The position numbers were made by a program, and so were the translations under genes. The notes under the pieces were generated by a model. The model searched no databases and was not told where the DNA came from. It saw only the letters and a list, made by a program, of their open reading frames with translations. Positions 3,876 to 32,418 of a DNA stretch of 64,000 bases are shown here, in pieces (the stretch's first letter is position 1; each line of letters starts with the position of its first letter). The stretch is taken from NCBI GenBank assembly GCA_964526445.1, contig CAZGIY010000001.1:20363-84362 (forward strand), written 5' to 3'. Origin of the DNA: an uncultured Candidatus Poseidoniales archaeon. Its GTDB lineage: Archaea; Thermoplasmatota; Poseidoniia; Poseidoniales; Poseidoniaceae.

Positions 3876-4238
3876 TTATTCTTCTTCAATCAATACTTCA
3901 ACTGGTGGCACTTCCACTTCCAACCGCTTGGACGAAACTTCAGATTCATCAGGGATGTGAAAATCAGAAATTCCCCCCCGCCATTTTGTAGTCATATCCT
4001 CGACTTCCTCGTTTTCAATTTGTGGAATTTCTGAATCTGGATTAAGACTGTACATAATTGGATCAATGGGTTTTACTGGCTCCTCTGTTCGTATAGGTTG
4101 TGCCCTTTCCTCAAGGTGCGCAGTAGTGTGAAAGGTGCCGCATTCAGGGCATCTACTAGAACCAACTTGCTGTATACAACCACATGCTGAACAGACGCTC
4201 AGTCCGTCGAAGACGGCGAGCGGATCCATTTTCTTCAC
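3876..4238 (-). CDS. Zinc-ribbon protein with acidic C-terminal tail
   Basis: CSACG-x9-CPECG zinc ribbon followed by an E/D/P-rich tail. It is translationally coupled to the EF-hand protein gene, whose stop overlaps this gene's start at 4235-4238. Confidence 0.5.
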   Translation of the reverse strand: MKKMDPLAVFDGLSVCSACGCIQQVGSSRCPECGTFHTTAHLEERAQPIRTEEPVKPIDPIMYSLNPDSEIPQIENEEVEDMTTKWRGGISDFHIPDESEVSSKRLEVEVPPVEVLIEEE

Positions 4239-6142
4239 TCCAGAAACATGCTGTCCTGAGGAGCCTCGATTTCGTCTCCAGTTTCTTCATCTTCGATGAT
4301 TACAGTCTCAGCATCATCATCGAATTCCAGGATGGTTCCGAAAATCTCCTCGCCGTCCAATTCGACTCCAACTCTGGAACCTACGTCGATGTCTTCTCCC
4401 TCATCGCCGTCCTCTCCATCGTCTTCAGAATCCTCATCATCATCTGAGTCTTCATCCGAATCCTCATCATCATCTGAGTCTTCATCCGTATCCTCATCTT
4501 CTGAATCTTCTTCTTCATCTGAATCCTCATCTGAATCCTCATCGTCATCATCTTCGGATTCCTCATCATCTGAGTCTTCATCCGAATCTTCACTATCACC
4601 AGCATCTTCGTCTTCTGCTTCATCGTCTGAATCCTTCTCGTCCGAATTGTCTTCATCGGACTCAGTTTCTTCTGTAGAATCTCCCTTCGCTTTTGCTCTC
4701 CACTGTTTCATCAATACCAAATGGGCATACAGAGAACCTCCAAGACCAATGGCACCGAGGATAATCATCAGGATACCGTCCCAATAGAAGCCAGCAGGCA
4801 TTGAACCAGCTCCATCACCAGCAAGAGGTGTCAAGGAATTAGCACAATCGTGAATAGAAGGGTCACAAGCAGTTGAATCACCCTCGTTAATCAGGTTATC
4901 ATCAGCATCAACAAAGGCATCTCCTGTGTGTTCAATGATGCCTCCTTCTCCGCTCACAAATATTCCTAGTCCATTTGCAATCCATAGAACCATGAATAGT
5001 CCGAAGAGTGCATGCATAATTGGCCAAAATATGTCATTCGCCTTCTTTGACATCAATTTCTTTTGCAGGTCAGAGGGGAATTCCTTACTTGTAGCCGAAT
5101 CGCTCTTTTCTTCATTAGCAGCCTTCTCTTCTTCATCTTCGAAGGTTTCGCCAAATGCGACAACTAATTCTTCGATACTTATGCTTCCATTTTCGTCGAA
5201 ATCAACCTCTGCCATGACTTCATCAACATCATCATCTGAGATAACGCCACCACCGAATTGAGTTAGTGCTGAATTAAGTTCTTCCCTGTCAATCTGTCCA
5301 TCATTATTGACGTCCATATGCTCAAAGGCGGCCTGCGCATTGTATCCTGCATCTTTGAAACTCTTGACCATTCTTCCTAGGGGAGTATCTGGTATTTCCT
5401 CTTCTTCATCATCGGAATCGTCATCCTCCTCCTCTTCGGAACCATCACTTTCTTGATCACCATCATCAGCGTCTTCTTCCCCGTCATCTGAATCGTCTTC
5501 TTCGTCCTCACCTTCGGATTCTACTTCTTCAGGGGCATCATCCTCTAAGTCCTCTTCTTCAGAAGCATCTTCCTGATCATCTGATTCTTCCTCTTCAGAA
5601 GCATCTTCCTGGTCATCTGATTCCTTCTCTTCGTCTTCAGGCCCCACCTCTTTGGAAGGTTTGTTATCAGGAGGTGTGAATGTTGATTCTAACTCTTGTA
5701 GGTCGATGACCCCGTTTCCATCCTCATCCAATGTGTCAACCAGGCGATTGACCTGAGATTCAGGCAGATCTGCAATATTCAATGCCAATAGACCAGTCTT
5801 GAATTCCTGTGCTTCTATTACTCCGTCGCCATTGGCGTCGAATCTTTTGAACAAATCTACGACTGAAAGACCAGTTGCATTCAACCAATCAGCGAGAATT
5901 TGGATAACGTCGTCTGCGACGAAAACCACTCCACATTGCGGACATGAACGCGAATCCAAGGGAACCAAAGCGCCACATGCGCCACATTCTCCTAGACTTG
6001 TATCACTCACACCGGTGAAGGATACTCCACACCCGGGACACTCCGTTGAGTCTACAGGGACTACTGCCCTACATGCTCCACACTCGGCCATACCTTCCTT
6101 GTCTGTATCTTCTTCAGTCATGGAAACCCATACTGTCCACAT
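4235..6142 (-). CDS. Membrane-anchored EF-hand calcium-binding protein with N-terminal double zinc ribbon and poly-acidic (D/E/S) tail
   Basis: Two CxxC-x9-CPxCG ribbons. Four canonical 12-residue EF loops: DANGDGVIEAQE, DEDGNGVIDLQE, DVNNDGQIDREE, DFDENGSISIEE. Two hydrophobic helices (IFWPIMHALFGLFMVLWIANGLGIFV and ILMIILGAIGLGGSLYAHLVLM). About 130 aa of a C-terminal DSDEDSDDDE-type tail. Confidence 0.7.
   Translation of the reverse strand: MWTVWVSMTEEDTDKEGMAECGACRAVVPVDSTECPGCGVSFTGVSDTSLGECGACGALVPLDSRSCPQCGVVFVADDVIQILADWLNATGLSVVDLFKRFDANGDGVIEAQEFKTGLLALNIADLPESQVNRLVDTLDEDGNGVIDLQELESTFTPPDNKPSKEVGPEDEEKESDDQEDASEEEESDDQEDASEEEDLEDDAPEEVESEGEDEEDDSDDGEEDADDGDQESDGSEEEEDDDSDDEEEEIPDTPLGRMVKSFKDAGYNAQAAFEHMDVNNDGQIDREELNSALTQFGGGVISDDDVDEVMAEVDFDENGSISIEELVVAFGETFEDEEEKAANEEKSDSATSKEFPSDLQKKLMSKKANDIFWPIMHALFGLFMVLWIANGLGIFVSGEGGIIEHTGDAFVDADDNLINEGDSTACDPSIHDCANSLTPLAGDGAGSMPAGFYWDGILMIILGAIGLGGSLYAHLVLMKQWRAKAKGDSTEETESDEDNSDEKDSDDEAEDEDAGDSEDSDEDSDDEESEDDDDEDSDEDSDEEEDSEDEDTDEDSDDDEDSDEDSDDDEDSEDDGEDGDEGEDIDVGSRVGVELDGEEIFGTILEFDDDAETVIIEDEETGDEIEAPQDSMFLE
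4427..4600. repeat. Coding tandem repeat (30-bp unit gaatcctcatcatcatctgagtcttcatcc x2 perfect, then degenerate copies) encoding a D/E/S tail
   Basis: Direct inspection of the sequence. Confidence 0.7.
5557..5630. repeat. Coding tandem repeat (36-37 bp unit x2) encoding SDDQEDASEEE(E/D)
   Basis: tcagaagcatcttcctg(a/g)tcatctgattc(t/c)ttc repeated back-to-back. Confidence 0.6.
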
Positions 6143-22715: not shown

Positions 22716-23846
22716 GTGATTACTTTATCGACAACCCCTAATAACTTGAATCTCCACAGTGGCATGTCGCCTCAGCACAGGAGGGCACACCCACTGATGG
22801 TTTCGAGCCTACTGGTCATCTATGCAAGTCTTGCTTTGGGAGTATCTTTCCTATGCAGCATGTTAGAGAGTGTATTGTTGAGTATTTCTCATTCTCATAT
22901 CCAATTGATGCAGAATGATGGGAAGAAAGCAGGAAAGATTTGGTCCGGATTGAAGGAGAATGATTCTGTTAGACCACTTACGGCGATTCTCACTTTGAAT
23001 ACAATAGCCCATACCGTTGGTGCAGTGGGCGTTGGTTCGGTGGTTCACGATGAATATGGAAACGAATGGGTAACATTAGCTTCGGCAATATTGACCGTGG
23101 CAGTATTGCTGCTTTCTGAAATTCTTCCAAAGACTATCGGTTCTGCTTATTGGAAGAAATTGGCGACCCCGACAGCACACGTAACTCAGCAATTGACCTG
23201 GTTGCTTACTGTAATCGTAGTTCCAATTGAGTGGTTCCGTAAACTATTGCCTCAAGCCCAGAAAACCACAGTTACTAGGGATGAACTAGCGGTTTTGGCC
23301 GACATAGGTGAGGAGGAGGGTACAATCGAGGAGGATGAGGAGAAAGTCATCGTCAACTTGTTACGATTGGCCGAGATATCGGTAGGCGAGATTATGACTC
23401 CGCGAGTGGTAGTGACTTCATTCCCCGCAAATTACACAATTTCACAAGTACTTGATGAACATCCTGTTCTACGCGTTTCTAGGATACCTGTGTATGGAGA
23501 AAATATGGACGATCTTCAGGGTCTTGTGATACGTTCAGAGATTCTATTGGCTGCGAGCAAAAATGAGTGGGATAAGCCATTGTCGAGTATGATGAAACCT
23601 CTCGATCAAATTGATGAGAAGGAAAGTGTTGATCACGCTCTAGATGTTTTCATCAGCAAGAGACAACAGATACTTGCTGTGGTTGATGACTTTGGGGGAA
23701 CTTCTGGGATAGTCACCTTGGAAGATGCGATTGAAACATTGTTGGGAGAAGAAATAGTCGATGAGACCGATGAAGCCGAGGACATGAGAGAAGTGGCTAT
23801 GGCACAATCCAGCAATGGATCCGAGGCAAATGATTCAGAGAAGTGA
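22716..23846 (+). CDS. CNNM/HlyC-CorC-family transporter (DUF21 plus CBS pair)
   Basis: Four-TM DUF21 N-terminus followed by tandem CBS domains. Confidence 0.75.
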   Translation: MITLSTTPNNLNLHSGMSPQHRRAHPLMVSSLLVIYASLALGVSFLCSMLESVLLSISHSHIQLMQNDGKKAGKIWSGLKENDSVRPLTAILTLNTIAHTVGAVGVGSVVHDEYGNEWVTLASAILTVAVLLLSEILPKTIGSAYWKKLATPTAHVTQQLTWLLTVIVVPIEWFRKLLPQAQKTTVTRDELAVLADIGEEEGTIEEDEEKVIVNLLRLAEISVGEIMTPRVVVTSFPANYTISQVLDEHPVLRVSRIPVYGENMDDLQGLVIRSEILLAASKNEWDKPLSSMMKPLDQIDEKESVDHALDVFISKRQQILAVVDDFGGTSGIVTLEDAIETLLGEEIVDETDEAEDMREVAMAQSSNGSEANDSEK

Positions 23847-24833
23847 TCTATCTAGGTAGTCTTGCATTAGTCTTGTTCTACCCTTGTGAATACTATCTCC
23901 GCTATGGCGCAGTCCTTTGATGACATGATTTTCATGTTCAACGTGGTCAATATTCTCGAGCAGTAATTGGTGATGGCTCATCCCCAATCTTTCATCATCA
24001 TCAGCTTGAATCAACAGGGTTGGAAATTCCGGCCTCCCCCATTCTGGGATTTTGATATCTTCTCTACCAGTCAATACGATATTTGGATGAATCTTTTTCC
24101 ATGCTTTAATCATCCATCGAAATTTCAATGGCCTCAATAGAACTAGTGGGCCAGGAGTGTATTCTTTGAGAATGAGATTATAATCGGTCATTGGAGACTC
24201 TAGAATCAGGCATCTGAGTTTCTGTCGCCACCACCCTTTGAATCTCGATTGTAAACGAATTGCGATGTAACTTCCAAGACTATGTCCATGGATAGAGATA
24301 GAAGAAATCTTCTCACGAGGTAAGGAATCGAGTAGTTTTGCTGCATCTTCTGCACATTTCTGTGCTGTGAATTCAGGGTCATCTGGCGCATGTCCGTGGC
24401 CGCGTAAATCCATCGCAAGAACATGATGCCCAGTAATATCTCTGCATCTATTCAAGGAACGAGAGGAATTAGAACTCCATCCATGAAGATAAAATATCAA
24501 CGGTGCAGTATCATCTAACCATTTGGCATGAGCATGAATTGATACTCCAGCATCATTTTTTACCACTAAACTTTGCCACTCTTCATCTTCGATACAAGAA
24601 ATGCTTCTTTTTGGTGTTTGAAAGAGAATTCTAAGATACCTAATTCGAATTGACTGCAATAGCAAGTATATGCCACTGATGAACAGAAGAATTGAAGATA
24701 GCGTTGTATATGCGATGGAAAAAGGCGATTGAATGTACAATAGCAATGCCATTGTCATGACAAAAATTGCTACGGCAAAGATATATTTCTCTAAAGGAGA
24801 TTCATGTGTTGCCTTACGAGTTTGTCCAGTCAT
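23835..24833 (-). CDS. Membrane-anchored alpha/beta hydrolase
   Basis: Two N-terminal TM helices, an HGWSSNS oxyanion region, a GHSLGS nucleophile elbow and Asp/His later in the sequence. Confidence 0.6.
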   Translation of the reverse strand: MTGQTRKATHESPLEKYIFAVAIFVMTMALLLYIQSPFSIAYTTLSSILLFISGIYLLLQSIRIRYLRILFQTPKRSISCIEDEEWQSLVVKNDAGVSIHAHAKWLDDTAPLIFYLHGWSSNSSRSLNRCRDITGHHVLAMDLRGHGHAPDDPEFTAQKCAEDAAKLLDSLPREKISSISIHGHSLGSYIAIRLQSRFKGWWRQKLRCLILESPMTDYNLILKEYTPGPLVLLRPLKFRWMIKAWKKIHPNIVLTGREDIKIPEWGRPEFPTLLIQADDDERLGMSHHQLLLENIDHVEHENHVIKGLRHSGDSIHKGRTRLMQDYLDRSLL

Positions 24834-25690
24834 GAATCATCATCCGCTGCATCAGACTCAGCAGCCGCACGCTTTTCATCGATCTTAGCGATGCGCTTTG
24901 CTCCAAATTCACCAAGGCTCTCCAACCTTGCCAACCATCCAGTCTCCTTTCCACTTGGTACGTGATGAACTAGATAAGCTGCAAAGATTTTGTCCCACAT
25001 TCCTTGTCCATATTCCTTGCCTACAATTTTCTTGAAGATGTACTCAGAAAGGGGGAATGCTAAACACAAAACACAGAGAACAAGCATTGTAGCATTAAGA
25101 CCGTCGCTACTGTTGTTTCCAATACCAGTATTTACCAAGAACCAAAGTCCCATGAAGAACATAGGTGTGTTGATGTTGGTCATTATTCCATGTAGAAAGA
25201 TTGGCCTTTCACCTTTGTATGAAACAAACTTAGTACGTGAAACAAATTGTCCGATGTTTCTGCCAAATTTTGCAGGAATGAAGAATACGTTTACAATAGG
25301 TAGCAATAAACCTCCAGCAAGAAGCAAAGTCATATCTGCCATTGCACCGGAAATGATGATTGATAATACTGCAATCATAACTCCCCAGTTCCAAATGAAA
25401 TTTACTAACCACGCTGCTGCCTTGTTTGTCTTTCCCGCTGCTACAAAGTCTTTGGGGAAAACCTTCTCAGGTCTTTCTCTCCTGACCCTTTCCCTTTTCT
25501 CTCGAACCGGTTTGGGTTTAGCAGCAGGTTTTGCTTTGGCCCTTGCTGCTGGCTTGGCCTTTGCTACTGGCTTGGCCTTTGCTACTGGCTTGGCCTTTGC
25601 TACTGGCTTGGCCTTTGCTGCTGGCTTGGCTTTCGCCGCTGGTTTTTTGTCAATCTCTCCTGCCTTGTCAAGTAATCCCATATGCCTCAA
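24830..25690 (-). CDS. Membrane protein with N-terminal (KAKPxA)n histone-H1-like repeat tail
   Basis: KPAAKAKPAAKAKPVAKAKPVAKAKPVAKAKPAARAKAKPAAKPKP, then four predicted TM helices. The start overlaps the upstream gene stop and the stop overlaps the downstream hydrolase start. Confidence 0.55.
   Translation of the reverse strand: MRHMGLLDKAGEIDKKPAAKAKPAAKAKPVAKAKPVAKAKPVAKAKPAARAKAKPAAKPKPVREKRERVRRERPEKVFPKDFVAAGKTNKAAAWLVNFIWNWGVMIAVLSIIISGAMADMTLLLAGGLLLPIVNVFFIPAKFGRNIGQFVSRTKFVSYKGERPIFLHGIMTNINTPMFFMGLWFLVNTGIGNNSSDGLNATMLVLCVLCLAFPLSEYIFKKIVGKEYGQGMWDKIFAAYLVHHVPSGKETGWLARLESLGEFGAKRIAKIDEKRAAAESDAADDDS
25538..25652. repeat. 18-bp coding tandem repeat (ggcttggcctttgctact x ~6) encoding KAKPVA
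   Basis: Direct inspection. There are no spacers, so it is not CRISPR-like. Confidence 0.75.
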
Positions 25691-26784
25691 ACTCCGTATC
25701 TTGCACCTATCGCGCTATATGTCGCGAAATCTTCTGATTGCATGAATGCTTGAATTTCATCCTCGGGTAATTCAAGCAGCAACGAATCGACCATCTGGAA
25801 GAACTCGCTTCGTTGATTATCATCTGCATCTGATGGATTTCCCGCTACAGCTGCATACAAAGTGAATTCATCGCTGTGAATAAAGGAATCAGTATCTGGT
25901 AGCTTCCCCAGTAGGTTATCAATAATCGAAACGAATTCGATGAATAAATCCTCAGATTCAACCTCCTCGTGATCATCACTTTCGTCCTCTTCCAAAGATG
26001 ATAGTGGGGCTTCTCCATCAATGACTGCAGCAATAGACTTGCGTTCGGATAGTAAAGCCTCAAGTTTTGGCTTCAACTTTTTCAACTTCGATGCATGGTT
26101 CTTCTGTTTTGCTAGTTGGTATTTTGGCTTCAACTTCTTGATCTCTTGCTCAAGTGCAGATTTCTTTGAATTCAACATCTCAAGAGTTTCGTCATCAATA
26201 TCACTTGCTTCCGCATCGTCGTAATCCTCTTCTGAATTAGTGTCTTCAACCTCTTCGTCTTCTGAGGGCTCCTCGTCTGCTGGCATTGCCTCTATCTCTT
26301 CCTTTTCTTCCTCGTCTAGAAGTGTAATTGTAGGTGCATCCCTTATTTCTGCAACCTTTGAATCGTGTTCCGCTTTTCTCTTGACGATAATCTCTCGATC
26401 TAGTTGATGGCCAAAACGGTCCGCATACCTGTCCAGTAGACTACCAACTTCTCCTTCACCGAGTCTATCGATATGGCCGTAAACTTGTTTCAGAGGTTTA
26501 CTACTCCCTCTTTTCCACAATGAATCATATCCATCCTTCTTATTCTCTTTAGACATGTCAGGTGGAGCCAAACTAGAGATTTTAGGAGCTGCTGCCCCCT
26601 CTAATGCACCTCTTGGTTTTGTGGATTCAACAGGTGGAGGAGGCACGCCTTTGGAAGGTGGCGGCGGTAGTCCTTCAGTTGGAGGCGGGGGAATCGCGGC
26701 AGGAAGCGAAGGAGGTAAGGGCAGAGGAGGCAGGTCTGCCGGATTTGGAGGTGCAGCACCCTTCTTCTTCTTCTTGCGTCCCAT
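25687..26784 (-). CDS. Polyproline/acidic coiled-coil protein with C-terminal internal duplicate
   Basis: N-terminus KKKKK then PPLPLPPSLPAAIPPPPTEGLPPPPSKGVPPPPVE. Central acidic and K-rich coiled-coil (LKKLKPK). The C-terminus duplicates LP(D/E)...SEDF.(T)Y.A(V/I). Confidence 0.5.
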   Translation of the reverse strand: MGRKKKKKGAAPPNPADLPPLPLPPSLPAAIPPPPTEGLPPPPSKGVPPPPVESTKPRGALEGAAAPKISSLAPPDMSKENKKDGYDSLWKRGSSKPLKQVYGHIDRLGEGEVGSLLDRYADRFGHQLDREIIVKRKAEHDSKVAEIRDAPTITLLDEEEKEEIEAMPADEEPSEDEEVEDTNSEEDYDDAEASDIDDETLEMLNSKKSALEQEIKKLKPKYQLAKQKNHASKLKKLKPKLEALLSERKSIAAVIDGEAPLSSLEEDESDDHEEVESEDLFIEFVSIIDNLLGKLPDTDSFIHSDEFTLYAAVAGNPSDADDNQRSEFFQMVDSLLLELPEDEIQAFMQSEDFATYSAIGARYGV

Positions 26785-26972
26785 GACATCACCCTACGGG
26801 TGGACTGTGGACTCCGCGCTTCTTCTTTAACATTGACCGCGTTTGAACTTGGCGAAATTACTCTATTTGAGTAAAACCGAATTATCAAATGAGTTGTGCC
26901 CAACCCTTGAGGACGACAAATGCTGCAGCTGCCTCAGGCAACGATAATCGGTCCCCAGCCGAACCTTCGATA

Positions 26973-28091
26973 TTAGTTGATGCCATGCGAGTATTGATGT
27001 TCTCGGCAAGAATTTCTACTTCCATCATGTTGTCCTTCCTGTAGTGGGTCGAAAGGATCACTTCCATCTGGGTCCAGCCGACTCAGTGGGAAAGAAGTGA
27101 CCCTCAGTCCACATTTACCATGCAAAGAGGTAGGGTATCTGATGACTCGGTGGCAATCGACAGTAACTACTTCATCAGTCTCCCCAGCATTGCCCAAAAC
27201 TACGGCAGCATCGCTTCGTAATATATCGATAAATGCATCACGATGGAAATTAGAATCACTTTTTCGCCCACCTAGTGCATTGAGATTTCCATCTTCTAGA
27301 CTGTCCCTTCTAACTGGGTGCTTAACAAGTTCCGCTAGGTCTTTCACAACCTTTTCACCGCGCGTTGTTTTCAATCCCCTGATTTTGGCAGACCTCCTGA
27401 GTGAATCAACGTAATTTGCAATCAATGCTTTGGATTGTTCATCGTTTGATTCTCTGATAGTATCGAGTTTTCTTAGTGTGTCCCTAAGTCCATTCTTCAG
27501 TCGCCCTGCCCATCCCGAAGCATCTCTCTCCATCGATCTTGGCAATAGTGAGATGACATCTACTCCATCACCTCTAAAGTGCGAAACTAATTCCCTACGC
27601 GCCTCTCCATCAAGATGTGCCAATCCAGGATCCCTATAGTGAAGGTGAAATCCTCTATGTCCGGAGAAAGTCAAGTGCAGATATCTTTCATCAAAACCAA
27701 ATTCAGGTTCTAGAAAGTCATTCCATAATTTCCAGGCCTGTTCGCGAATCAACGTCAACATACCAGTGAAATCGGTATCTACTACACCTGGTAAGTGGTC
27801 TCCATCAAGGTCAAAGATTAAATCCGCACCTAACCATCCTTTGTCCTTCATCTTATATTCACGCGGGTCTCTCCAATATGCAGTACTGTAGAACACAGAA
27901 TGTGGGGTCCTTTCAATTAGATTCCTTTTGATACTCGATAGGTCATCGAAGCCCATATGTCTGAGGGGCCTACCCCCACCAAACGGAATCAACATCCACT
28001 CCCTAGTACGTAAGCGAGGGGGGATCCAGCCATCGAAAGATCGGTAATATTGCTCGAACCTATGAGCAAAAAGCGACCATCCCTTGACCAT
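26973..28091 (-). CDS. priS: DNA primase small (catalytic) subunit PriS
   Basis: Archaeo-eukaryotic primase fold with the LIFDLDGDH catalytic aspartates and conserved SVFYSTAYW / RGFHLHY regions. Confidence 0.8.
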   Translation of the reverse strand: MVKGWSLFAHRFEQYYRSFDGWIPPRLRTREWMLIPFGGGRPLRHMGFDDLSSIKRNLIERTPHSVFYSTAYWRDPREYKMKDKGWLGADLIFDLDGDHLPGVVDTDFTGMLTLIREQAWKLWNDFLEPEFGFDERYLHLTFSGHRGFHLHYRDPGLAHLDGEARRELVSHFRGDGVDVISLLPRSMERDASGWAGRLKNGLRDTLRKLDTIRESNDEQSKALIANYVDSLRRSAKIRGLKTTRGEKVVKDLAELVKHPVRRDSLEDGNLNALGGRKSDSNFHRDAFIDILRSDAAVVLGNAGETDEVVTVDCHRVIRYPTSLHGKCGLRVTSFPLSRLDPDGSDPFDPLQEGQHDGSRNSCREHQYSHGIN

Positions 28092-28145
28092 CTAGGTGCC
28101 TCCGGCCTTGTCCTACAGCCGAGGGGTGATGAATGACGCGGTCAT

Positions 28146-28355
28146 TTATCGGTAGAATGGGCGCTCTGTATCTTTGCCTGCAGTTGCTGAAGATACTCCA
28201 GTTATTTCCTGATAGCATTTCCAACATGCATAGTGTTCATCGATAGGAATTGATTGGCCAAAGGTCAATCTCTTACCGCACCCGTGGCAAAGAGGACCAA
28301 GCTCCCCATTAGGTGCTGCAGCCAATGGAACATGGTCATGGGGCATGCGTCTCAA
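28146..28355 (-). CDS. Small zinc-ribbon protein
   Basis: CHGCG...CWKC. Confidence 0.3.
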   Translation of the reverse strand: MRRMPHDHVPLAAAPNGELGPLCHGCGKRLTFGQSIPIDEHYACWKCYQEITGVSSATAGKDTERPFYR

Positions 28356-28402
28356 CTACCCGTTGGGGCACCGGTCTTTGAATGTGAGCATCGGCCAGAT
28401 AT

Positions 28403-28870
28403 TCATTCATCGATTAGATGATGATTTAGCAGGTCCAGTGCAACTTCACAGGATTCAGCAACTTCAATAGATGGGTCATAGAGAAAACGGTTGAGGATTT
28501 TGCGACTATTTTGATTACCTATTGCCCCCATCGCTTCTGCAGCCTCATGTCTCACCATGACATGTTCCTCGAGGTCTTCTAGTCTACTATTCAGTGCTGG
28601 TAATGCTCTCGAGTCCTGCATCTGTCCCAAGACGTATGCCAATTCATGTCTCAATAGTGCTGAAGCGCTAGAAAATCCACTACACAAAGCATCGACCGCC
28701 TCTTTTCCACCAATATTACGAAGAGCAAAAACGGATCTCATCCTCACAAACATCCTCTCAGTTTCATTATTCAAAACTTGTTTCAGAGTTTCTACATCCT
28801 TTTCCTCTGAGGGAGGAGCGGGGTCTACTGAGCCAAATTCACTGACCTCGGGAATATTTCCATCATTCAT
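28403..28870 (-). CDS. Half-size deoxyhypusine-hydroxylase-like HEAT-repeat protein (two His-Glu motifs)
   Basis: VRMRSVFALRNIGGKEAV...ALLRHELAYVLGQMQDSRALPAL...HVMVRHEAAEAMGAIGN...DPSIEVAESCEVALD. HEAT (PBS-lyase-type) repeats with paired H-E dipeptides at the positions used by DOHH for its di-iron site. Start moved to ATG 28870 to remove a 41-nt overlap with the upstream gene. Confidence 0.55.
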   Translation of the reverse strand: MNDGNIPEVSEFGSVDPAPPSEEKDVETLKQVLNNETERMFVRMRSVFALRNIGGKEAVDALCSGFSSASALLRHELAYVLGQMQDSRALPALNSRLEDLEEHVMVRHEAAEAMGAIGNQNSRKILNRFLYDPSIEVAESCEVALDLLNHHLIDE

Positions 28871-28871
28871 A

Positions 28872-29780
28872 CTAAGATGACCTCCCGATGAATTCGATTG
28901 AATCAGGCTCAAATTCTGCAGAGACCATACCTATTTCTTGCCCCTTCTTGAGGAATCTACGAATTGCTTCTCTTCCTTCATCTCCATAGTCAATAGTACG
29001 TTCATTGACATACATTTTAACGAATTTTTCATTTGTTTGATCATCGATACCTCGACCCCATGCCTTAGCAAATTCCAGCGCCTGCTCTGGGTTCTCAAGT
29101 GCATGTATAATACTCAATCTCGTCCAATTGGTGATGTTCTCAATCGTTTTACGACCGAGATCCTTGCGGACAATATTGCCGCCCAACGGTAATGGCAATC
29201 CATCATTATGTTCTGACCACCAAACTCCAAGATCAAGATGAACGTCAAGTTCATGCTCAACATAGGTCAATTGCCCTTCGTGGATGATAAGGCCTCCATC
29301 AACTTCTCCGGAATTGACAGCCTCGATGATCTCGTCGAATGGGATAACTTTGATTGAAACATCGCCCCAAGCCATTCGCAAACCTAGATAGGCGCTAGTC
29401 TTCAACCCAGGAACTGCAATCAATCCTCGCTTGATTTCTTCCGTCTCACTACCGCTTTTTGCTACTACCATCGGTCCATATCCCTCCCCCATACTGGCGC
29501 CACAATTCATCAGGGCATAATCTCCAGCAACCTCGGGGAACGAGTGAATACTGATTGCACTGACTTCTAGTTCTCTGTTCATCGCGCGCTGGTTCAAAGT
29601 TTCTATATCCTGTAATTCATGAACGAAGTGATAGCCTGGAGTGGATATCAATCCGGAAGTCAAAGCATGGAACATGAAAGCATCATCTGGATCGGGTGAA
29701 TGACCTATTCTTACAACCTTGAAAGATTCAGAGTTCAAGTCATTCTGTTCATCCATGATGCGCCGAAATGGGGCCCTCAT
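28872..29780 (-). CDS. MqnA/MqnD-family protein (likely 1,4-dihydroxy-6-naphthoate synthase MqnD, futalosine pathway)
   Basis: VRIGHSPDPDDAFMFHALTSG resembles the MqnD N-terminus LGYSPCPNDTFIFDAL. Periplasmic-binding-protein-like fold family. Confidence 0.5.
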   Translation of the reverse strand: MRAPFRRIMDEQNDLNSESFKVVRIGHSPDPDDAFMFHALTSGLISTPGYHFVHELQDIETLNQRAMNRELEVSAISIHSFPEVAGDYALMNCGASMGEGYGPMVVAKSGSETEEIKRGLIAVPGLKTSAYLGLRMAWGDVSIKVIPFDEIIEAVNSGEVDGGLIIHEGQLTYVEHELDVHLDLGVWWSEHNDGLPLPLGGNIVRKDLGRKTIENITNWTRLSIIHALENPEQALEFAKAWGRGIDDQTNEKFVKMYVNERTIDYGDEGREAIRRFLKKGQEIGMVSAEFEPDSIEFIGRSS

Positions 29781-29853: not shown

Positions 29854-32418
29854 GTGTGCCGACAAAGATTCTATTTCAGATGGGGTGATGCAGCAGCGAG
29901 GATAGTCATGCGGGTACGCGGTGGGCCACTTGTCGCTTTACTGCTAACTTCGCTTTCAGTTATTGCACTTGCACAAGCTGCAACACCTAGTGGCATGGGA
30001 TTTGTTGGTGCGCATACAGTGGTTAGGGAAAGTTTCGATGAAACGCATAGCGTTGCCCTTTCTCCAGACGCCTCCCTTATTGCCACAGGGACTGAAGGAT
30101 ATGTTATTATTTCGCGCATATCCGATCGTTCTATAGTTGAAAGAATATCAGTAGGGGACCAAGTAACTGCTCTAGAATTCTCTCCCGATGGAGAATATCT
30201 CGCTTTGGGGCTTAGGTCTGATGCCCTTTCGGGGGATGCACTTAAAGTGCTATTCACTGATGATTGGAGGGAGTACGAAAAGACATTTGCTAATGGTAAA
30301 AATCCCAGTGACATTTCATTCTCTGATGCGGGAGATAAGATACTTCTTCAGGGTCAGGACAAAGATGTGTTCGAGTTGTCATTCCCCGAATTTTCCATAT
30401 TGGGTCACATGACGGGGCACCATTTGGATGATATTACGTGTACAGATTATGGATATGGGGGATTGATAGCAGTATCTGGTGGATTGGATGGTAAAATCGC
30501 TTTCTGGGATCTTTCAGATCATTCACTTTCCTCATCAATTGAGTTCGAGGATTCTGAAATTGTTGATTGTTTATTCAATCCATCATCTTCTCAAGTTGCC
30601 ATCTTGACAGATGACGGAAAAGTTAGATCATATTGGTTGAACGGGACTTTGGTTGAAGGCTCAGAACTCGATTTCCTACAAGCTAAGGAGCTCAAGTGGA
30701 GCCTTAATGGAAACCATCTATATGTATTGGAAACCAATATTTTGCCTTCTTTGCAGCGTGTGAGAGTGAATGATTGGATAGTCGATGAGTTCACTTACAT
30801 AGGTCACAATGTGAATGGATTTGATTTATCGGATGATGAAGAGACATTAGTGATTAGTACTGGAACTGTACATACGAGTGTATATCAGTCGACGTACTTC
30901 CAGCAAGGTTTTGGTGAGCCGGGAGATGATTTTGATCAAGATGGAGTGCCAGACGTAATCGATGTTGATGATGATGGTGATGGAATTTTGGATATTTACG
31001 ACCTCAACTGTTCTAGTTCAGATTGTACCAAGGACCCACATCCCAATTATATGCGAAATATTGAGTTTCAAGTATCTGATGAGGAGTTAATCATAAGCGA
31101 TAGCATATCATTCAATAGATCCGATTCTAATGCATTGAGAAATTTGACTACAAGTCTACTTTCTGATGATAACAAAATTAGTGTCGACGAATTAACTTGG
31201 ATGTCAACTGCCATGTGCGATAATATTAGACATAGGGATGTTATTGATCAATGGCATTCAATGATTGAGGTTGAGGGTTCACAATTGAGCAATGGAACAC
31301 TATCCTGTGAACCCGTATCTGGAATTTCTTCCAATGATTTCAGCGATTTTAGTCATAGGGCAACTCTTACTTGGATTACAACATTTGATTTATCGAGTGC
31401 TCCAATTGCGCCCTACAATATTACAGTAAAGGGAATTATCCTTGCTCCTACTGGCTCTTCCGCAATCATTGCCCCACAGTTCCCGGCTTCAATCGATTTT
31501 GCCGATTTGAATTCAGAAAATAATCGAATTGACTTGTGGAATCGGAACGAAACGATTAGAATTGTCTTGATGGAAGAATTGGAGGAAGAAGGACCTGGAT
31601 TGACTGGCTTAGTAGCGTCGTTCATTTCAGACAATTTTTGGATTCCAATAAGCAGTTTCCTTGGAATCTTTATTGGTATCGGATTGATTATCAAGCAAAA
31701 CAAGGACATTTCTAATGCATTGATTCGTGGGGGTAGAGAGGAAGATGAAGAGGGGGAAGATGAAGAGGATGATTATGATGAATCATTCAATGACTCAAAT
31801 CTATATGAATCTGAACATTACGAGGAGTCCGATTCCGCTGACGACGAGTCAACATGGAGTAACGAATCAGAGTCTATGCCTCCTCGGCCAAAACGGCGCC
31901 CTCCTCGAAAATCTACGAGAAGAGTAGCACATGAAGAGTATCCTATCGGTGATTCTACTCCTGTCAAGGCTAGGAGAAAGCGCGTTAGTAGTAAACAACC
32001 AATTGGTTCTAAGCGACACACTCTTTCTGAATCTGTAGAATTGGATTATGATTATGGCCAAGACGGAGTATATCATGATGGTGATTGGGATACAGAGTAT
32101 GACATTTACGAACAGCCCCAGACCAAAGTACGCAAAGTGCGTAAAGTGGAAAGCGTTCCTGAACTTGAAGCGGAAGAATCCAAGCCGGAGCAAAAGAAAG
32201 GAAGAAGGAAGGTTAAGAGGCGCAATAACGAGAAAGGAAAAGCCTCCAGTAAAGCAGTGGATGATGATTCCATCGTTGCAAAGAAAGTTGTTACGTCCAA
32301 GAAACGCAGTTCAGGGTCAAAGAAAACTCAAGATGATGGAGGCAAAGTCTCGTCTGATGATGAAGATTCAGCAATGGACAAAGCATTGGGTATGTTAACG
32401 GGTGATTCCAAGGATTGA
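29854..32418 (+). CDS. Secreted/surface beta-propeller protein with thrombospondin-type-3-like Ca-binding repeats, C-terminal TM anchor and highly charged cytoplasmic tail
   Basis: Signal-peptide-like LVALLLTSLSVIALAQA. WD40/PQQ-like repeats. DQDGVPDVIDVDDDGDGILDIYD. A C-terminal TM segment (ISSFLGIFIGIGLII), then an E/D- and K/R-rich tail. Confidence 0.7.
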   Translation: MCRQRFYFRWGDAAARIVMRVRGGPLVALLLTSLSVIALAQAATPSGMGFVGAHTVVRESFDETHSVALSPDASLIATGTEGYVIISRISDRSIVERISVGDQVTALEFSPDGEYLALGLRSDALSGDALKVLFTDDWREYEKTFANGKNPSDISFSDAGDKILLQGQDKDVFELSFPEFSILGHMTGHHLDDITCTDYGYGGLIAVSGGLDGKIAFWDLSDHSLSSSIEFEDSEIVDCLFNPSSSQVAILTDDGKVRSYWLNGTLVEGSELDFLQAKELKWSLNGNHLYVLETNILPSLQRVRVNDWIVDEFTYIGHNVNGFDLSDDEETLVISTGTVHTSVYQSTYFQQGFGEPGDDFDQDGVPDVIDVDDDGDGILDIYDLNCSSSDCTKDPHPNYMRNIEFQVSDEELIISDSISFNRSDSNALRNLTTSLLSDDNKISVDELTWMSTAMCDNIRHRDVIDQWHSMIEVEGSQLSNGTLSCEPVSGISSNDFSDFSHRATLTWITTFDLSSAPIAPYNITVKGIILAPTGSSAIIAPQFPASIDFADLNSENNRIDLWNRNETIRIVLMEELEEEGPGLTGLVASFISDNFWIPISSFLGIFIGIGLIIKQNKDISNALIRGGREEDEEGEDEEDDYDESFNDSNLYESEHYEESDSADDESTWSNESESMPPRPKRRPPRKSTRRVAHEEYPIGDSTPVKARRKRVSSKQPIGSKRHTLSESVELDYDYGQDGVYHDGDWDTEYDIYEQPQTKVRKVRKVESVPELEAEESKPEQKKGRRKVKRRNNEKGKASSKAVDDDSIVAKKVVTSKKRSSGSKKTQDDGGKVSSDDEDSAMDKALGMLTGDSKD

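What the first reader, a model, noticed from the sequence alone, without database searches (positions are those of the whole stretch)
23835..26784. Operon: polyproline/acidic protein, (KAKPxA)n-tailed membrane protein, membrane alpha/beta hydrolase
Three minus-strand genes have overlapping start and stop codons. The first has a K5 patch plus an FH1/WASP-like proline-rich tract (PPLPLPP...PPPP...PPPP...PPPP), followed by an acidic/K-rich coiled coil and a duplicated C-terminal motif. The second begins with a histone-H1/AlgP-like (KAKPVA)n tail, encoded by an 18-bp DNA tandem repeat, ahead of four TM helices. The third is a TM-anchored hydrolase. Polyproline tracts are ligands for profilin, SH3 and WW domains, and KAKP repeats bind polyanions (DNA, RNA, polyphosphate). 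This could be a membrane-associated scaffold. The repeat number is likely length-variable.
Basis: seen in the sequence. Interest (0 to 1): 0.55.

Follow-up and report, generated by a model that had tools for sequence, protein, structure and literature searches.

The report
Archaeal scaffold docked to membrane anchor
Three tightly linked genes of a marine group II archaeon encode real, conserved but uncharacterised proteins, and comparison across archaea suggests that the tail end of the first protein docks onto the invariant first seven residues (MGLLDKA) of the second, a pairing also found next to pilus motors in other archaea.

Summary
The features described are real. The window is a Poseidoniales (marine group II) chromosome. 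The order PriS, g1, g2, (g3) is kept in every related locus examined (about 80). g3 is missing from roughly a fifth of loci where it could be scored.

- g1 has a polybasic N-terminus, a roughly 65-residue Pro-rich linker, a short conserved domain, an acidic stretch, a helical hairpin and a tandem C-terminal helical module of about 45 aa.
- g2 starts at ATG 25681, not at the overlapping TTG. It has the invariant N-terminus MGLLDKA, a disordered polycationic tail of about 75 residues, a divergent RDD-like 4-TM domain and a C-terminal helix.
- g3 is a membrane-anchored Ser-Asp-His hydrolase.

The C-terminal module recurs in other archaea on unrelated proteins: DnaA-like and HerA-like ATPases, SWIM proteins and coiled-coil proteins of type IV pilus loci. 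In every case I could evaluate, the next gene product begins MGL[LR]., usually MGLL(D/E)KA. The partners include PilB-like ATPases, DUF2226-like proteins and bona fide RDD proteins.

Best reading (inferred, about 50%): the module is the receptor for that N-terminal peptide, so g1 docks onto the g2 anchor. Nothing supports profilin, SH3 or DNA binding. Repeat number differs between close relatives. The cellular role is unknown.

The parts
25687..26784 (-). g1 CDS (365 aa): elongated scaffold protein, single copy, conserved across Poseidoniales
   Evidence: ORF. 356 homologues. 253 species-level genomes encode a relative. The exact sequence occurs on 7 contigs from independent assemblies. No Pfam, NCBIfam or PDB sequence match.
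26788..26793 (-). GGTGAT, a likely Shine-Dalgarno element 3 nt upstream of the g1 ATG
   Evidence: Read directly from the sequence. The assignment is an inference.
26758..26784 (-). g1 residues 1-9, polybasic N-terminus MGRKKKKKG. Homologues have MG(L/F/R)(R/G)K.KK.
   Evidence: The median is 5 K/R in the first 12 residues. Membrane binding is inferred, not tested.
26560..26757 (-). g1 residues 10-75, Pro-rich disordered linker (PPLPLPP and three PPPP runs)
   Evidence: pLDDT is 41-63 across residues 1-80. In homologues the median length is 88 aa and 32% Pro, with variable sequence.
26329..26529 (-). g1 residues 86-152, conserved N-domain Y..LW...S.KPL.Q.YGHIDR.G....GSLLDRY.DRFGH.LDR.II
   Evidence: Densest run of invariant columns in A1. 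A recognisable core, (I/V)(D/E)R(I/L/M)...L..(R/K)(F/Y/W)...FG, is kept in distant relatives. The model has low confidence here apart from one long helix at 117-148.
26194..26328 (-). g1 residues 153-197, acidic disordered stretch (net -21 over residues 161-200)
   Evidence: Length is highly variable in homologues.
26020..26193 (-). g1 residues 198-255, K-rich helical hairpin (LKPxYQ.AK ... LKP.LE.L..ERK)
   Evidence: AlphaFold2 helices 198-227 and 231-255 with pLDDT 89-95. Conserved L218, P220, P239, L241 and L244.
25690..25968 (-). g1 residues 273-365, tandem C-terminal module (two units of about 45 aa: F..F..(I/V)(I/V)D.LL..LPE..I..F..S..F..Y..V). Proposed receptor for the MGLLDKA peptide.
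   Evidence: pLDDT 85-92, three helices per unit. The module recurs on unrelated proteins. It is always followed by an MGLL-initiated gene. No PDB relative.
25685..25688 (-). GAGG, a likely ribosome-binding site for g2, overlapping the g1 stop codon (translational coupling)
   Evidence: Sequence. The g1 stop to g2 ATG gap is 4-13 nt in most of 76 loci. Function is inferred.
24830..25681 (-). g2 CDS (283 aa from ATG 25681): membrane anchor with a tethered N-terminal peptide
   Evidence: 368 homologues. Independent gene calls give 283 aa. Alignment A2. AlphaFold2 model.
25661..25681 (-). g2 residues 1-7, MGLLDKA: invariant N-terminal peptide, the proposed docking ligand
   Evidence: M1 to K6 are invariant in A2. 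Counts in 78 loci: MGLLDKA 48, MGLLDKV 29, MGLLDKS 1. Gly and Leu codons vary, so selection acts on the protein. The same N-terminus is found on the partners of module proteins in other archaea. Only one unrelated ORF among 1271 starts MGLL.
25442..25660 (-). g2 residues 8-80, polycationic disordered tail (net about +19) containing the (KAKPxA)n repeats
   Evidence: pLDDT below 50 for residues 6-66. In 68 homologues the tail is 66-117 aa with net charge +4 to +20.
25536..25630 (.). 18-bp tandem DNA repeat (5.3 copies) encoding KAKP(V/A)A
   Evidence: TRF. There is one unit fewer in relatives L005 and L007, whose g1 is 87-90% identical. Copy number is unchanged in four assemblies of the same population.
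25025..25432 (-). g2 residues 84-219, four TM helices with a small beta-sheet: divergent RDD-like domain
   Evidence: Helices at 84-110, 118-139, 162-185 and 195-219. Hydropathy. Weak RDD (PF06271) hits in 9 of 21 homologues, best E 1.3e-3. Partners of distant g1-like genes carry unmarked PF06271 hits.
24839..24937 (-). g2 residues 249-281, conserved cytoplasmic C-terminal helix (ETGW.AR.E.LG.FG) followed by a charged tail
   Evidence: 20 of 78 homologues end in a second K/R-rich tail.
23835..24833 (-). g3 CDS (332 aa): alpha/beta hydrolase with an N-terminal two-TM hairpin. Its start overlaps the g2 stop (ATGA).
   Evidence: Hydrolase_4 53.3 bits, Abhydrolase_6 and Abhydrolase_1. TM helices at 18-36 and 40-58. 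HGW117-119, GHSxG with Ser185, Asp280 and His310 are conserved in at least 95% of 61 homologues. Not found in 17 of 78 loci.
26973..28091 (-). Context: PriS (DNA primase small subunit). It lies immediately upstream of g1 in all Poseidoniales loci and in the deeper-branching loci L087 and L088.
   Evidence: Pfam DNA_primase_S. NCBIfam PriS. Synteny. It is not linked to g1-like genes in L114 and L115.

Best explanation
g1, g2 and usually g3 form one translationally coupled operon of Poseidoniales. I read its products as an assembly at the cytoplasmic face of the membrane.

g2 is the membrane anchor. It has a divergent RDD-type four-helix domain. Its cytoplasmic N-terminus is a disordered polycationic tether of about 75 residues (here KAKPxA repeats) that presents the invariant peptide MGLLDKA at its tip.

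g1 is an elongated scaffold: polybasic N-terminus, Pro-rich spacer, small conserved domain, acidic disordered stretch and helical hairpin. Its tandem C-terminal helical module binds the MGLLDKA peptide of g2. The receptor is the last part of g1 to be translated. The ligand is the first part of g2 to be translated, 5 nt downstream on the same mRNA. The pair could therefore assemble during translation.

g3 is an accessory membrane-anchored serine hydrolase (lipase/esterase type) with its catalytic domain in the cytoplasm.

Shown:
- The genes, their domains and their conservation.
- The operon structure.
- The cross-lineage rule that a gene for a module-bearing protein is followed by a gene whose product starts MGLL.

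Inferred:
- Direct module-peptide binding.
- Membrane association of the g1 N-terminus.
- Assembly during translation.

Unknown: the cellular process served. The Pro-rich and KAKP tracts are best read as flexible spacers under selection for length and charge, not as specific ligands.
For: 1. The genes are real and conserved. There are 356 homologues of g1 and 368 of g2. Relatives of g1 are encoded in 253 species-representative genomes, and the 80 listed carry Poseidoniales-type labels apart from two apparently mis-binned records.

2. The operon is tight. The g1-g2 gap is 4-13 nt in most of 76 loci and the g2-g3 gap is -4 to +29 nt.

3. The g1-g2 pair survives where the neighbourhood changes. 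L087 and L088 have different downstream genes. In L114 and L115 a distant g1-like gene is preceded by a VWA gene rather than PriS. It overlaps a downstream gene whose product reads MGLLDKA, then a K-rich tail, then a bona fide Pfam RDD domain. In L118 a SWIM+module protein is followed by a g2-like protein.

4. The module is mobile. It sits at the extreme C-terminus of a DnaA-like ATPase (Altiarchaeales), a HerA-like ATPase, SWIM, EF-hand-containing and TM proteins, and K/E-rich proteins of pilus loci.

5. The partner rule held wherever the downstream gene could be read:
- 78 of 78 Poseidoniales-type loci in which a g2 gene was found.
- 19 of 19 module ORFs in L087-L105.
- The seven look-ups with readable downstream sequence: L110/L111, L112, L113, L114, L115, L116 and L118.

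6. The partners are unrelated to one another. They are PilB-like T2SSE ATPases of two clades, DUF2226-like proteins, RDD proteins and coiled-coil proteins. In each the motif is followed by a long charged, probably disordered segment.

7. 'Daisy chains' occur in which a protein starts with MGLL and ends with a module, and is itself followed by another MGLL protein (L090, L116).

8. The background is low. Only 1 other ORF of 1271 in all loci starts MGLL. Synonymous Gly and Leu codons vary.

9. Structure predictions agree. The module is confidently folded with pLDDT 85-92. g2 residues 3-6 form a short helix on a disordered tail.
Against: - No binding or complex prediction could be run.
- Gene adjacency could instead reflect binding of both elements to a third partner, or descent from a single ancestral arrangement. 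Many of the pilus loci come from closely related organisms, with ATPase cores about 80% identical. The number of independent contexts is therefore about 7-8, not about 100.
- Module copy number (1 or 2) does not track the number of GLL(D/E)KA motifs in the partner (1 or 2) in any simple way.
- The loci outside Poseidoniales were found by searching for the module. I have not measured how often MGLLDKA N-termini occur without an upstream module gene across whole genomes.
- The whole nine-gene neighbourhood is syntenic in Poseidoniales. Conservation within that order alone is therefore weak evidence.
- The biological function remains unknown.
Confidence: 0.5

Rival explanations
1. The polyproline tract of g1 recruits a profilin-, SH3- or WW-like protein. 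The KAKP tail of g2 binds a polyanion (DNA, RNA or polyphosphate). Together they form a membrane-nucleoid or membrane-cytoskeleton scaffold, perhaps linked to replication.
For: - Composition of the tracts.
- PriS is the invariant upstream neighbour in marine lineages.
- The module also occurs on DnaA-like and HerA-like ATPases and on a SWIM protein.
- The tail always carries a net positive charge, +4 to +20.
Against: - Pro-rich tracts are not conserved in position or sequence. They are absent from the pilus-locus homologues.
- KAKP is replaced by RRERK- or KKKK-type tails in relatives.
- PriS linkage is lost in L114 and L115.
- No SH3, profilin or WW gene was sought, because only 64 kb of the genome is available.
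- The model does not explain the invariant MGLLDKA peptide.
Confidence: 0.15
2. g1 is a divisome or cytoskeleton membrane tether that works like ZipA or haloarchaeal CdpC. [quoted passage not shown]
For: The resemblance is architectural only. CdpC is described as a membrane-binding N-terminal domain, a disordered linker and an FtsZ1-binding C-terminal domain.
Against: - There is no sequence or fold similarity to any solved structure.
- CdpC needs zinc fingers in both domains, and g1 has no cysteine.
- In other archaea the module pairs with pilus ATPases, DUF2226-like and RDD proteins, not with division genes.
Confidence: 0.1
3. The three genes are merely neighbours with separate functions. g2 would be an RDD-family ion transporter, as reported for a Halobacillus RDD protein. 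g3 would be a lipase. g1 would be an unrelated coiled-coil protein. The low-complexity tails would be neutral.
For: - The whole MqnA to MetRS neighbourhood is syntenic in Poseidoniales.
- An RDD protein has been reported to act as a Na+(Li+,K+)/H+ antiporter (abstract of PMC5996927).
- g3 is dispensable in about a fifth of loci.
Against: - The 4-13 nt coupling of g1 and g2.
- Persistence of the pair with different neighbours.
- The MGLL rule across unrelated partner families.
- Conservation of tail length and charge.
Confidence: 0.15
4. The Pro-rich ORF is antisense or low-complexity noise and not a gene.
For: A 91-aa Gly-rich ORF lies on the opposite strand.
Against: - The sense frame continues into strongly conserved domains with about 50 invariant columns in 34 diverse sequences.
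- The family is found in 253 species-level genomes.
- The C-terminal half folds with pLDDT around 90.
- No Rfam family matches the region.
Confidence: 0.01

Closest known systems
RDD family membrane proteins (Pfam PF06271)
   Same: g2 has the same small polytopic layout. Its G-R-N-x-G-x-F-x-S-R-x-K loop sits where RDD proteins carry their conserved G.T.GK motif. 9 of 21 homologues give weak RDD hits. The equivalent partners of distant g1-like genes are scored as RDD.
   Different: The window protein itself does not reach any RDD threshold. Asn occupies the positions where L114 and L115 have the RDD-type Asp. The MGLLDKA peptide, the polycationic tail and the obligate upstream scaffold gene are not described features of the family. 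RDD function is itself essentially unknown; there is one report of an antiporter.
Membrane tethers built as anchor, disordered linker and binding domain: bacterial ZipA (from general knowledge) and haloarchaeal CdpC
   Same: The modular logic is the same: a membrane-proximal element, a long Pro-rich or disordered spacer, and a folded C-terminal domain that grips a short peptide or partner.
   Different: There is no homology. g1 has no TM helix or zinc finger. No link to FtsZ was found. Here the anchor and the scaffold are two proteins.
Cytoplasmic accessory proteins of archaeal type IV pilus or archaellum loci, for example the coiled-coil arCOG07564 protein of subclade 4F loci (PMC4858521)
   Same: Relatives sharing the g1 module are K/E-rich, probably coiled-coil cytoplasmic proteins encoded directly upstream of PilB-like ATPases. 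Those loci also hold two T2SSF genes, archaeal pilins and an A24 peptidase.
   Different: Identity with arCOG07564 could not be tested. The window operon lies in no pilus locus, and its partner is a membrane protein rather than an ATPase.
Pfam PF27359 (TP_0179)
   Same: Precomputed faint or weak hits fall on many g1 homologues. They also fall on small proteins that consist largely of the module, such as P0329.
   Different: The model is absent from the Pfam copy I could search, so coverage and significance could not be checked. The literature on TP0179 says nothing about function.
TonB, TolA, histone H1 and AlgP-type Lys/Ala/Pro repeats
   Same: The KAKPxA repeats resemble these proteins in composition. 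The best NCBIfam hit is TonB at E 0.061.
   Different: That hit is far below threshold (13 bits against 315). The resemblance is compositional only. The repeat sequence is not conserved even within Poseidoniales.

Membership tests
Alpha/beta hydrolase, Hydrolase_4 / Abhydrolase_1 (g3) | Pfam model scored above the gathering threshold | tested here: met
   PF12146 53.3 bits (cut-off 27), PF12697 42.1 bits and PF00561 40.6 bits.
Alpha/beta hydrolase, Hydrolase_4 / Abhydrolase_1 (g3) | Nucleophile elbow GxSxG plus Asp and His of the catalytic triad, and an HG oxyanion motif | tested here: met
   H117-G118-W119, G183-H184-S185-x-G187, D280 and H310 are conserved in at least 95% of 61 homologues.
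RDD family, PF06271 (g2) | Pfam model scored above the gathering threshold (24.1 bits) | tested here: not met
   There is no RDD hit on the window protein even at E up to 10. 9 of 21 homologues hit weakly, the best at 19.4 bits and E 1.3e-3. Partners of distant g1-like genes do carry PF06271 hits.
RDD family, PF06271 (g2) | Conserved Arg and two Asp that name the family | tested here: inconclusive
   R141 and R149 are invariant. The helix-1 positions are N94 and N98, where L114 and L115 have (A/Q)(I/V)ID. No residue-level alignment to the Pfam model was available.
RDD family, PF06271 (g2) | Small polytopic membrane domain of 3-4 TM helices with a cytoplasmic N-terminus | tested here: met
   Four helices in the AlphaFold2 model. 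The charge distribution fits N-in, C-in topology.
CdpC / ZipA-type Z-ring membrane anchors (g1) | Zinc fingers in the N- and C-terminal domains (CdpC), or an N-terminal TM helix (ZipA) | tested here: not met
   g1 contains no Cys and no hydrophobic segment.
CdpC / ZipA-type Z-ring membrane anchors (g1) | C-terminal domain binds FtsZ | not testable with these tools
   No interaction prediction was available, and no FtsZ gene lies in the neighbourhood.
FH1/WASP-like polyproline ligand (g1) | A cognate profilin, SH3, WW or EVH1 domain protein in the same organism | not tested
   Only 64 kb of the genome is in hand.
FH1/WASP-like polyproline ligand (g1) | Conserved proline motifs at conserved positions | tested here: not met
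   Only P24, P25 and P32 are invariant. The tract length and sequence vary (median 88 aa). The tract is missing from pilus-locus relatives.
TonB (g2 tail) | NCBIfam TonB model above its cut-off | tested here: not met
   13.2 bits against a cut-off of 315, E 0.061.
Module / MGLL-peptide gene pair (defined in this report) | A helical unit of about 45 aa, F..F..(I/V)(I/V)D.LL..LPE..I..F..S..F..Y, in one or two copies at the extreme C-terminus of the upstream product | tested here: met
   g1 residues 273-365. Score of 81 bits against the module profile built from non-Poseidoniales sequences.
Module / MGLL-peptide gene pair (defined in this report) | The next gene on the same strand, within about 30 nt, encodes a product starting MGL[LR] followed by a charged segment | tested here: met
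   g2 starts 5 nt after the g1 stop with MGLLDKA and then a tail of about +19. The rule holds in all evaluable loci.
Module / MGLL-peptide gene pair (defined in this report) | Direct physical binding of the peptide to the module | not testable with these tools
   No multimer prediction or experiment was possible.
Pfam PF27359 (TP_0179) | Model scored above threshold on g1 | tested here: inconclusive
   There are only precomputed faint or weak hits on homologues. The model is not in the searchable Pfam copy.

The most novel reading that the evidence does not exclude
The C-terminal module of about 45 aa and the N-terminal peptide MGLL(D/E)KA form a previously undescribed docking pair that is widespread in archaea (Poseidoniales and related marine lineages, Altiarchaeales, and unassigned low-GC metagenomic contigs with pilus loci). 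It would wire cytoplasmic scaffolds and ATPases to the protein encoded immediately downstream: type IV pilus assembly ATPases, DUF2226-like proteins and RDD membrane anchors. The gene order places the receptor (last part translated) next to the ligand (first part translated), so complexes, and even daisy chains, could assemble during translation. On this reading the window operon is the Poseidoniales instance, in which a polyproline scaffold is hung from an RDD anchor by a polycationic leash whose length can change.
Probability: 0.45. Interest if true: 0.8.

Novelty: new variant of a known kind. Interest (0 to 1): 0.62.

Why it matters
Marine group II archaea are among the most abundant planktonic archaea, have not been cultured, and many of their core genes have no assigned function. 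This operon is a single-copy core feature of the order.

The comparative result is the first concrete, testable handle on it: a short peptide and a small helical module that should bind each other. The same pairing sits directly in front of the assembly ATPase in type IV pilus loci of other archaea, and on a DnaA-like ATPase in Altiarchaeales. If the docking is real, it gives three things:
- A missing connector for archaeal pilus machineries.
- A role for at least some RDD proteins as membrane anchors.
- A rule for predicting protein partners from gene order in uncultured archaea.

It would also be a clear case of operon order matched to assembly during translation.

Separately, the neighbouring half-size deoxyhypusine hydroxylase homologue bears on the question of how, or whether, archaea hydroxylate deoxyhypusine on aIF5A.

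Tried and rejected
Searches with no informative result:
- Pfam, NCBIfam, PADLOC and PHROGs gave nothing informative for g1 or g2.
- PDB sequence searches with the g1, g2 and module profiles gave no hit below E 0.1.
- Foldseek against the PDB with both AlphaFold2 models gave only generic helical-hairpin or TM-bundle matches, at E of about 2 or more for g1 and about 0.08 or more for g2.
- Rfam found no family in 23000-28500.

Searches that failed or were wasted:
- The third homologue search, using the module profile, returned only 3 proteins because of the word index.

Literature checked and set aside:
- TP0179 papers concern only Treponema genomics.
- No paper combines Poseidoniales with proline-rich proteins.
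- The haloarchaeal Dip system (GTPase, DUF2073 protein, Zn-ribbon protein) and CdpC (zinc fingers) share at most an architectural logic with g1.

Ideas considered and rejected:
- N-myristoylation of the MG N-termini. From general knowledge, Lys at position 6 does not fit the eukaryotic consensus, and no archaeal N-myristoyltransferase is known to me.
- MGLLDKA as a membrane-targeting amphipathic helix. It has only two hydrophobic residues.
- A DNA- or RNA-level element causing the MGLL conservation. The codons vary.
- A stoichiometric match between module copies and peptide copies. None was seen.
- Repeat-length polymorphism within one population. None was seen in four assemblies.

Full report
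**1. What is in the sequence**

The window carries three consecutive minus-strand ORFs:
- g1: 25687-26784, 365 aa.
- g2: 24830-25690 if the first TTG is used.
- g3: 23835-24833, 332 aa.

g1 reads MGRKKKKKG, then a tract with 25 prolines in the first 80 residues, including PPLPLPP and three PPPP runs. It continues with:
- a region without low complexity;
- an acidic stretch, net -21 over residues 161-200;
- a Lys-rich stretch, net +10 over residues 201-240;
- a second acidic stretch;
- two copies of F..FV.I(I/V)D.LL..LP......F..S..F..Y.

g2 has a KAKP(V/A)A tail encoded by an 18-bp tandem repeat at 25536-25630, with 5.3 copies and 96% matches. Four hydrophobic helices follow.

g3 has two N-terminal hydrophobic helices. 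It scores well above threshold for Hydrolase_4, Abhydrolase_6 and Abhydrolase_1.

The g2 start is ATG 25681, 5 nt after the g1 stop and preceded by GAGG. It is not the TTG that overlaps the stop. Every homologue begins MGLLDK, and independent gene calls on four assemblies give 283 aa. Only g2/g3 overlap (ATGA).

The Gly-rich and Leu/Ala-rich ORFs on the plus strand are mirror images of the Pro and Lys/Ala codon runs. No Rfam family matches the region.

**2. Organism and conservation**

The neighbours are archaeal:
- the PriS primase subunit;
- an MqnA-type menaquinone enzyme;
- a CNNM/CBS protein;
- MetRS with a tRNA-binding domain;
- a HEAT protein.

Homologues of g1 and g2 are labelled Poseidoniales, Poseidoniaceae, Thermoplasmatota or 'Euryarchaeota archaeon' where a name exists. 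A scan of one genome per species found relatives of g1 in 253 genomes. The 80 listed are Poseidoniales-type MAGs, and two carry evidently wrong bin labels.

In these loci the order MqnA, (HEAT), Zn-ribbon, PriS, g1, g2, (g3), CNNM (opposite strand), MetRS is almost invariant. g3 was not found in 17 of 78 loci; some of these are truncated by contig ends.

The g1 stop to g2 start distance is 4-13 nt in most of 76 loci. The g2 to g3 distance is -4 to +29 nt. The three genes therefore behave as one translationally coupled unit.

A profile search of 1.84 billion cluster representatives found only 240 proteins at E up to 1e-3. The g1 family is real but narrow.

**3. Anatomy of the three proteins**

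*g1.* In an alignment of 34 diverse homologues:
- The N-terminus is MG(L/F/R)(R/G)K.KK.
- The Pro-rich tract varies in length and sequence. The median is 88 residues and 32% Pro.
- Residues 86-152 form the most conserved block: Y..LW...S.KPL.Q.YGHIDR.G....GSLLDRY.DRFGH.LDR.II.
- The C-terminal double motif is conserved mainly at hydrophobic core positions.

In the AlphaFold2 model built from this alignment:
- Residues 1-80 score pLDDT 41-63, consistent with disorder.
- Residues 153-197 fall below pLDDT 50, consistent with disorder.
- Residues 198-255 form a helical hairpin with pLDDT 89-95.
- Residues 273-365 form two three-helix units with pLDDT 85-92.

*g2.* The invariant columns include M1-G2-L3-L4-D5-K6. 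The following tail is 66-117 residues long with net charge +4 to +20 in 68 homologues, but its sequence is not conserved.

In the g2 model:
- Residues 3-6 form a short helix.
- Residues 6-66 are disordered.
- There are four TM helices (84-110, 118-139, 162-185, 195-219) and a small three-stranded sheet.
- A long C-terminal helix follows.

The charge distribution places both termini in the cytoplasm. Nine of 21 homologues give weak hits to the RDD family, the best at E 1.3e-3. I call the domain a divergent RDD-like domain.

*g3.* The HGW motif, GHSxG with Ser185, Asp280 and His310 are conserved in at least 95% of 61 homologues. The two-helix hairpin is followed by a basic segment, which places the catalytic domain in the cytoplasm.

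**4. What did not help**

Some homologues carry precomputed faint or weak hits to Pfam PF27359 (TP_0179). That model is not in the copy I could search. The literature on TP0179 is uninformative.

**5. The key result: the module travels, and its gene is always followed by an MGLL gene**

The distant hits of the profile search share only the C-terminal module, attached to unrelated N-terminal parts:
- a bacterial-type DnaA ATPase domain, annotated as DnaA in a Candidatus Altiarchaeales MAG;
- a HerA/DUF87-like ATPase;
- a SWIM zinc finger;
- variants with an EF-hand insertion;
- TM-anchored small proteins;
- more distant full-length g1-like proteins that keep the order basic patch, polyproline, N-domain core, double module.

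A metagenome scan seeded with these distant proteins returned 19 loci. Two of them, L087 and L088, are deeper-branching marine relatives. They keep PriS, g1 and g2 but have different downstream genes.

The other loci carry K/E-rich proteins ending in one or two modules. In at least nine of these loci the next gene encodes a PilB-like T2SSE ATPase, and where the flanks are long enough the locus is a recognisable archaeal type IV pilus locus. In L091, where I scanned the flanking genes against Pfam, those flanks include two T2SSF genes, archaeal pilins and an A24 prepilin peptidase.

In every case where the downstream gene could be read, its product starts MGL[LR].:
- MGLLEKAQQ... on the ATPases;
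- MGLLDRVRK and MGLRDKVKG on DUF2226-like proteins that precede an ATPase;
- MGLLQKAQE, MGLLNKAQE, MGLLAEAEK, MGLLKEAKK and MGLRDRAKE on other partners.

Direct look-ups extended the rule to contexts unrelated to pili:
- The Altiarchaeales DnaA-like+module gene overlaps a gene starting MGLLDKAKKMKQ. That product has a K/E/P-rich linker and then a DUF2226-like domain.
- The HerA-like+module gene is followed by MGLLDKAKKIQ.
- Two distant g1-like genes, preceded by a VWA gene rather than PriS, each overlap a gene encoding MGLLDKA, a K-rich tail and a bona fide Pfam RDD domain.
- The SWIM+module gene is followed by (TTG)GLLEKAGK, a basic tail and a g2-like membrane domain.
- Another module gene is followed by (TTG)GLLERAKV... 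on a protein that itself ends in a module.

L090 shows the same 'daisy chain'.

Among 1271 ORFs of at least 100 aa in all fetched loci plus the window, only one unrelated ORF starts MGLL. Gly and Leu codons at the motif vary freely, so the constraint acts on the peptide.

**6. Interpretation**

The simplest reading is that the module is a small folded receptor and MGLL(D/E)KA is its ligand. The ligand is presented at the tip of a long charged, disordered leash on the partner.

In the window this means the g1 C-terminus docks onto the g2 N-terminus. An elongated scaffold would then hang from an RDD-type membrane anchor by a leash of about 75 residues. The receptor is the last part of the upstream product to be translated and the ligand is the first part of the downstream product. 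Assembly during translation on the polycistronic mRNA is therefore plausible.

These steps are inferences, because no complex prediction or experiment was possible. Alternatives remain open: both elements could bind a third factor, or the arrangement could be inherited from a single ancestral cassette. The pilus loci are phylogenetically close, with ATPase cores about 80% identical. The independent contexts therefore number about seven or eight. I put the docking model at about 0.5.

The cellular role in Poseidoniales is unknown. The invariant PriS neighbour and the DnaA-like and HerA-like fusions hint at DNA-related processes. The pilus loci hint at surface-filament assembly. Neither link is established for this operon.

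**7.

'Membrane-associated scaffold' fits the predicted topology.

Repeat-number variation is confirmed between close relatives. The window has six KAKPxA-type units. L005 and L007, whose g1 proteins are 87-90% identical to the window's, have five. It was not seen among four assemblies of the same population.

The profilin/SH3/WW and polyanion-binding proposals have no support. The Pro-rich tract and the KAKP repeats are the least conserved parts of the proteins, and relatives replace them with other low-complexity sequence. They look like spacers selected for length, extension and charge.

**8. Comparison with known systems**

g3 is an ordinary member of the alpha/beta hydrolases.

g2 is at best a divergent RDD-family member. 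That family has only one functional report, an antiporter.

g1 resembles ZipA and the recently described haloarchaeal CdpC only in modular logic. It lacks their defining TM helix or zinc fingers. The haloarchaeal Dip system is unrelated.

A coiled-coil cytoplasmic protein (arCOG07564) has been noted in some archaeal pilus loci. It might correspond to the pilus-locus relatives, but this could not be tested.

I found no description of the module/MGLL pairing in the papers I searched.

**9. Side observation**

The 169-aa HEAT protein three genes upstream (28403-28912) matches human deoxyhypusine hydroxylase at E 2e-69. It aligns to each half of the human enzyme and includes the HE metal motifs.

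A 2016 paper states that no DOHH orthologue had been identified in archaea. The gene is conserved in most Poseidoniales loci.

Hypusinated a/eIF5A rescues ribosomes stalled on polyproline (abstract of PMC4770232), and g1 has three PPPP runs. That link is speculative.

**10. Verdict**

This is a real, conserved and uncharacterised operon. The most valuable outcome is a new, testable rule, the module followed by an MGLL partner, that links this operon to pilus ATPases, DUF2226-like proteins and RDD proteins across archaea.

Noticed in passing
window 28403-28912 (-): A 169-aa HEAT-repeat protein is a half-size homologue of eukaryotic deoxyhypusine hydroxylase. It scores E 2e-69 to human DOHH (4d4z) and aligns to both halves of the human enzyme, including RHELAYVLGQ and VRHEAAEAMGAIG. 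It is conserved in most Poseidoniales loci. A 2016 paper states that no archaeal DOHH orthologue was known. It lies three genes upstream of a gene with three PPPP runs, whose translation would be expected to need aIF5A.
   Followed up: partly
window 28146-28355 (-): A 69-aa protein with CxxC...CxxC (Zn-ribbon) always lies between the DOHH-like gene and PriS. A homologue has a precomputed weak YrzR_Zn_ribbon hit. NCBIfam finds no match.
   Followed up: no
L090 (1-351, 358-1284, 1291-end) and L116 (2501-3355, 3356-end): 'Daisy chains': a protein that begins with the MGLL motif and also ends with the module, followed by another MGLL-initiated gene. In L090 the last gene is a PilB-like ATPase. This suggests ordered head-to-tail assemblies.
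   Followed up: partly
L110 5476-6732, L113 4212-5183, L089 482-1444: A family of proteins of about 320-420 aa carries the MGL[LR]D[KR] N-terminus. L110 has a weak DUF2226 hit. The C-terminus looks like a winged helix...IEEWA.ILE.HNL.ELHY. In two loci the gene sits between the module gene and a T2SSE ATPase gene. In Altiarchaeales it follows a DnaA-like ATPase that ends in the double module where a DNA-binding domain would be expected.
   Followed up: partly
window 26758-26784 and g1 homologues: Many g1 homologues themselves start MGLRKRDKK, MGLGKKKK or MGFRKNKKK. This partly resembles the partner motif variants MGLRD(K/R). Whether the g1 N-terminus could occupy a module, giving self-association or autoinhibition, is unknown.
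   Followed up: no
window 29854-32418 (+): An 854-aa protein has a signal-like N-terminus, WD40 beta-propeller hits, a late TM segment and a long acidic-then-basic low-complexity tail. It is conserved next to MqnA in related loci.
   Followed up: no
window 4235-6142 (-): A 635-aa ORF has an extremely acidic stretch, 82% Asp+Glu in a 40-residue window around residues 521-560.
   Followed up: no
L008 (CAXRJJ010000038.1) and L011 (JAOMAZ010000001.1): Public records labelled 'Yoonia sp.' and 'Deltaproteobacteria bacterium' carry the complete Poseidoniales PriS, g1, g2, g3, CNNM, MetRS locus. These are probably mis-binned or mislabelled assemblies.
   Followed up: no
g2 homologues, e.g. L004 6985-7962: 20 of 78 g2 homologues also end in a second K/R-rich tail (KAKPKSKAKAKPK...) after an acidic stretch. 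The polycationic feature can therefore occur at both cytoplasmic ends.
   Followed up: no
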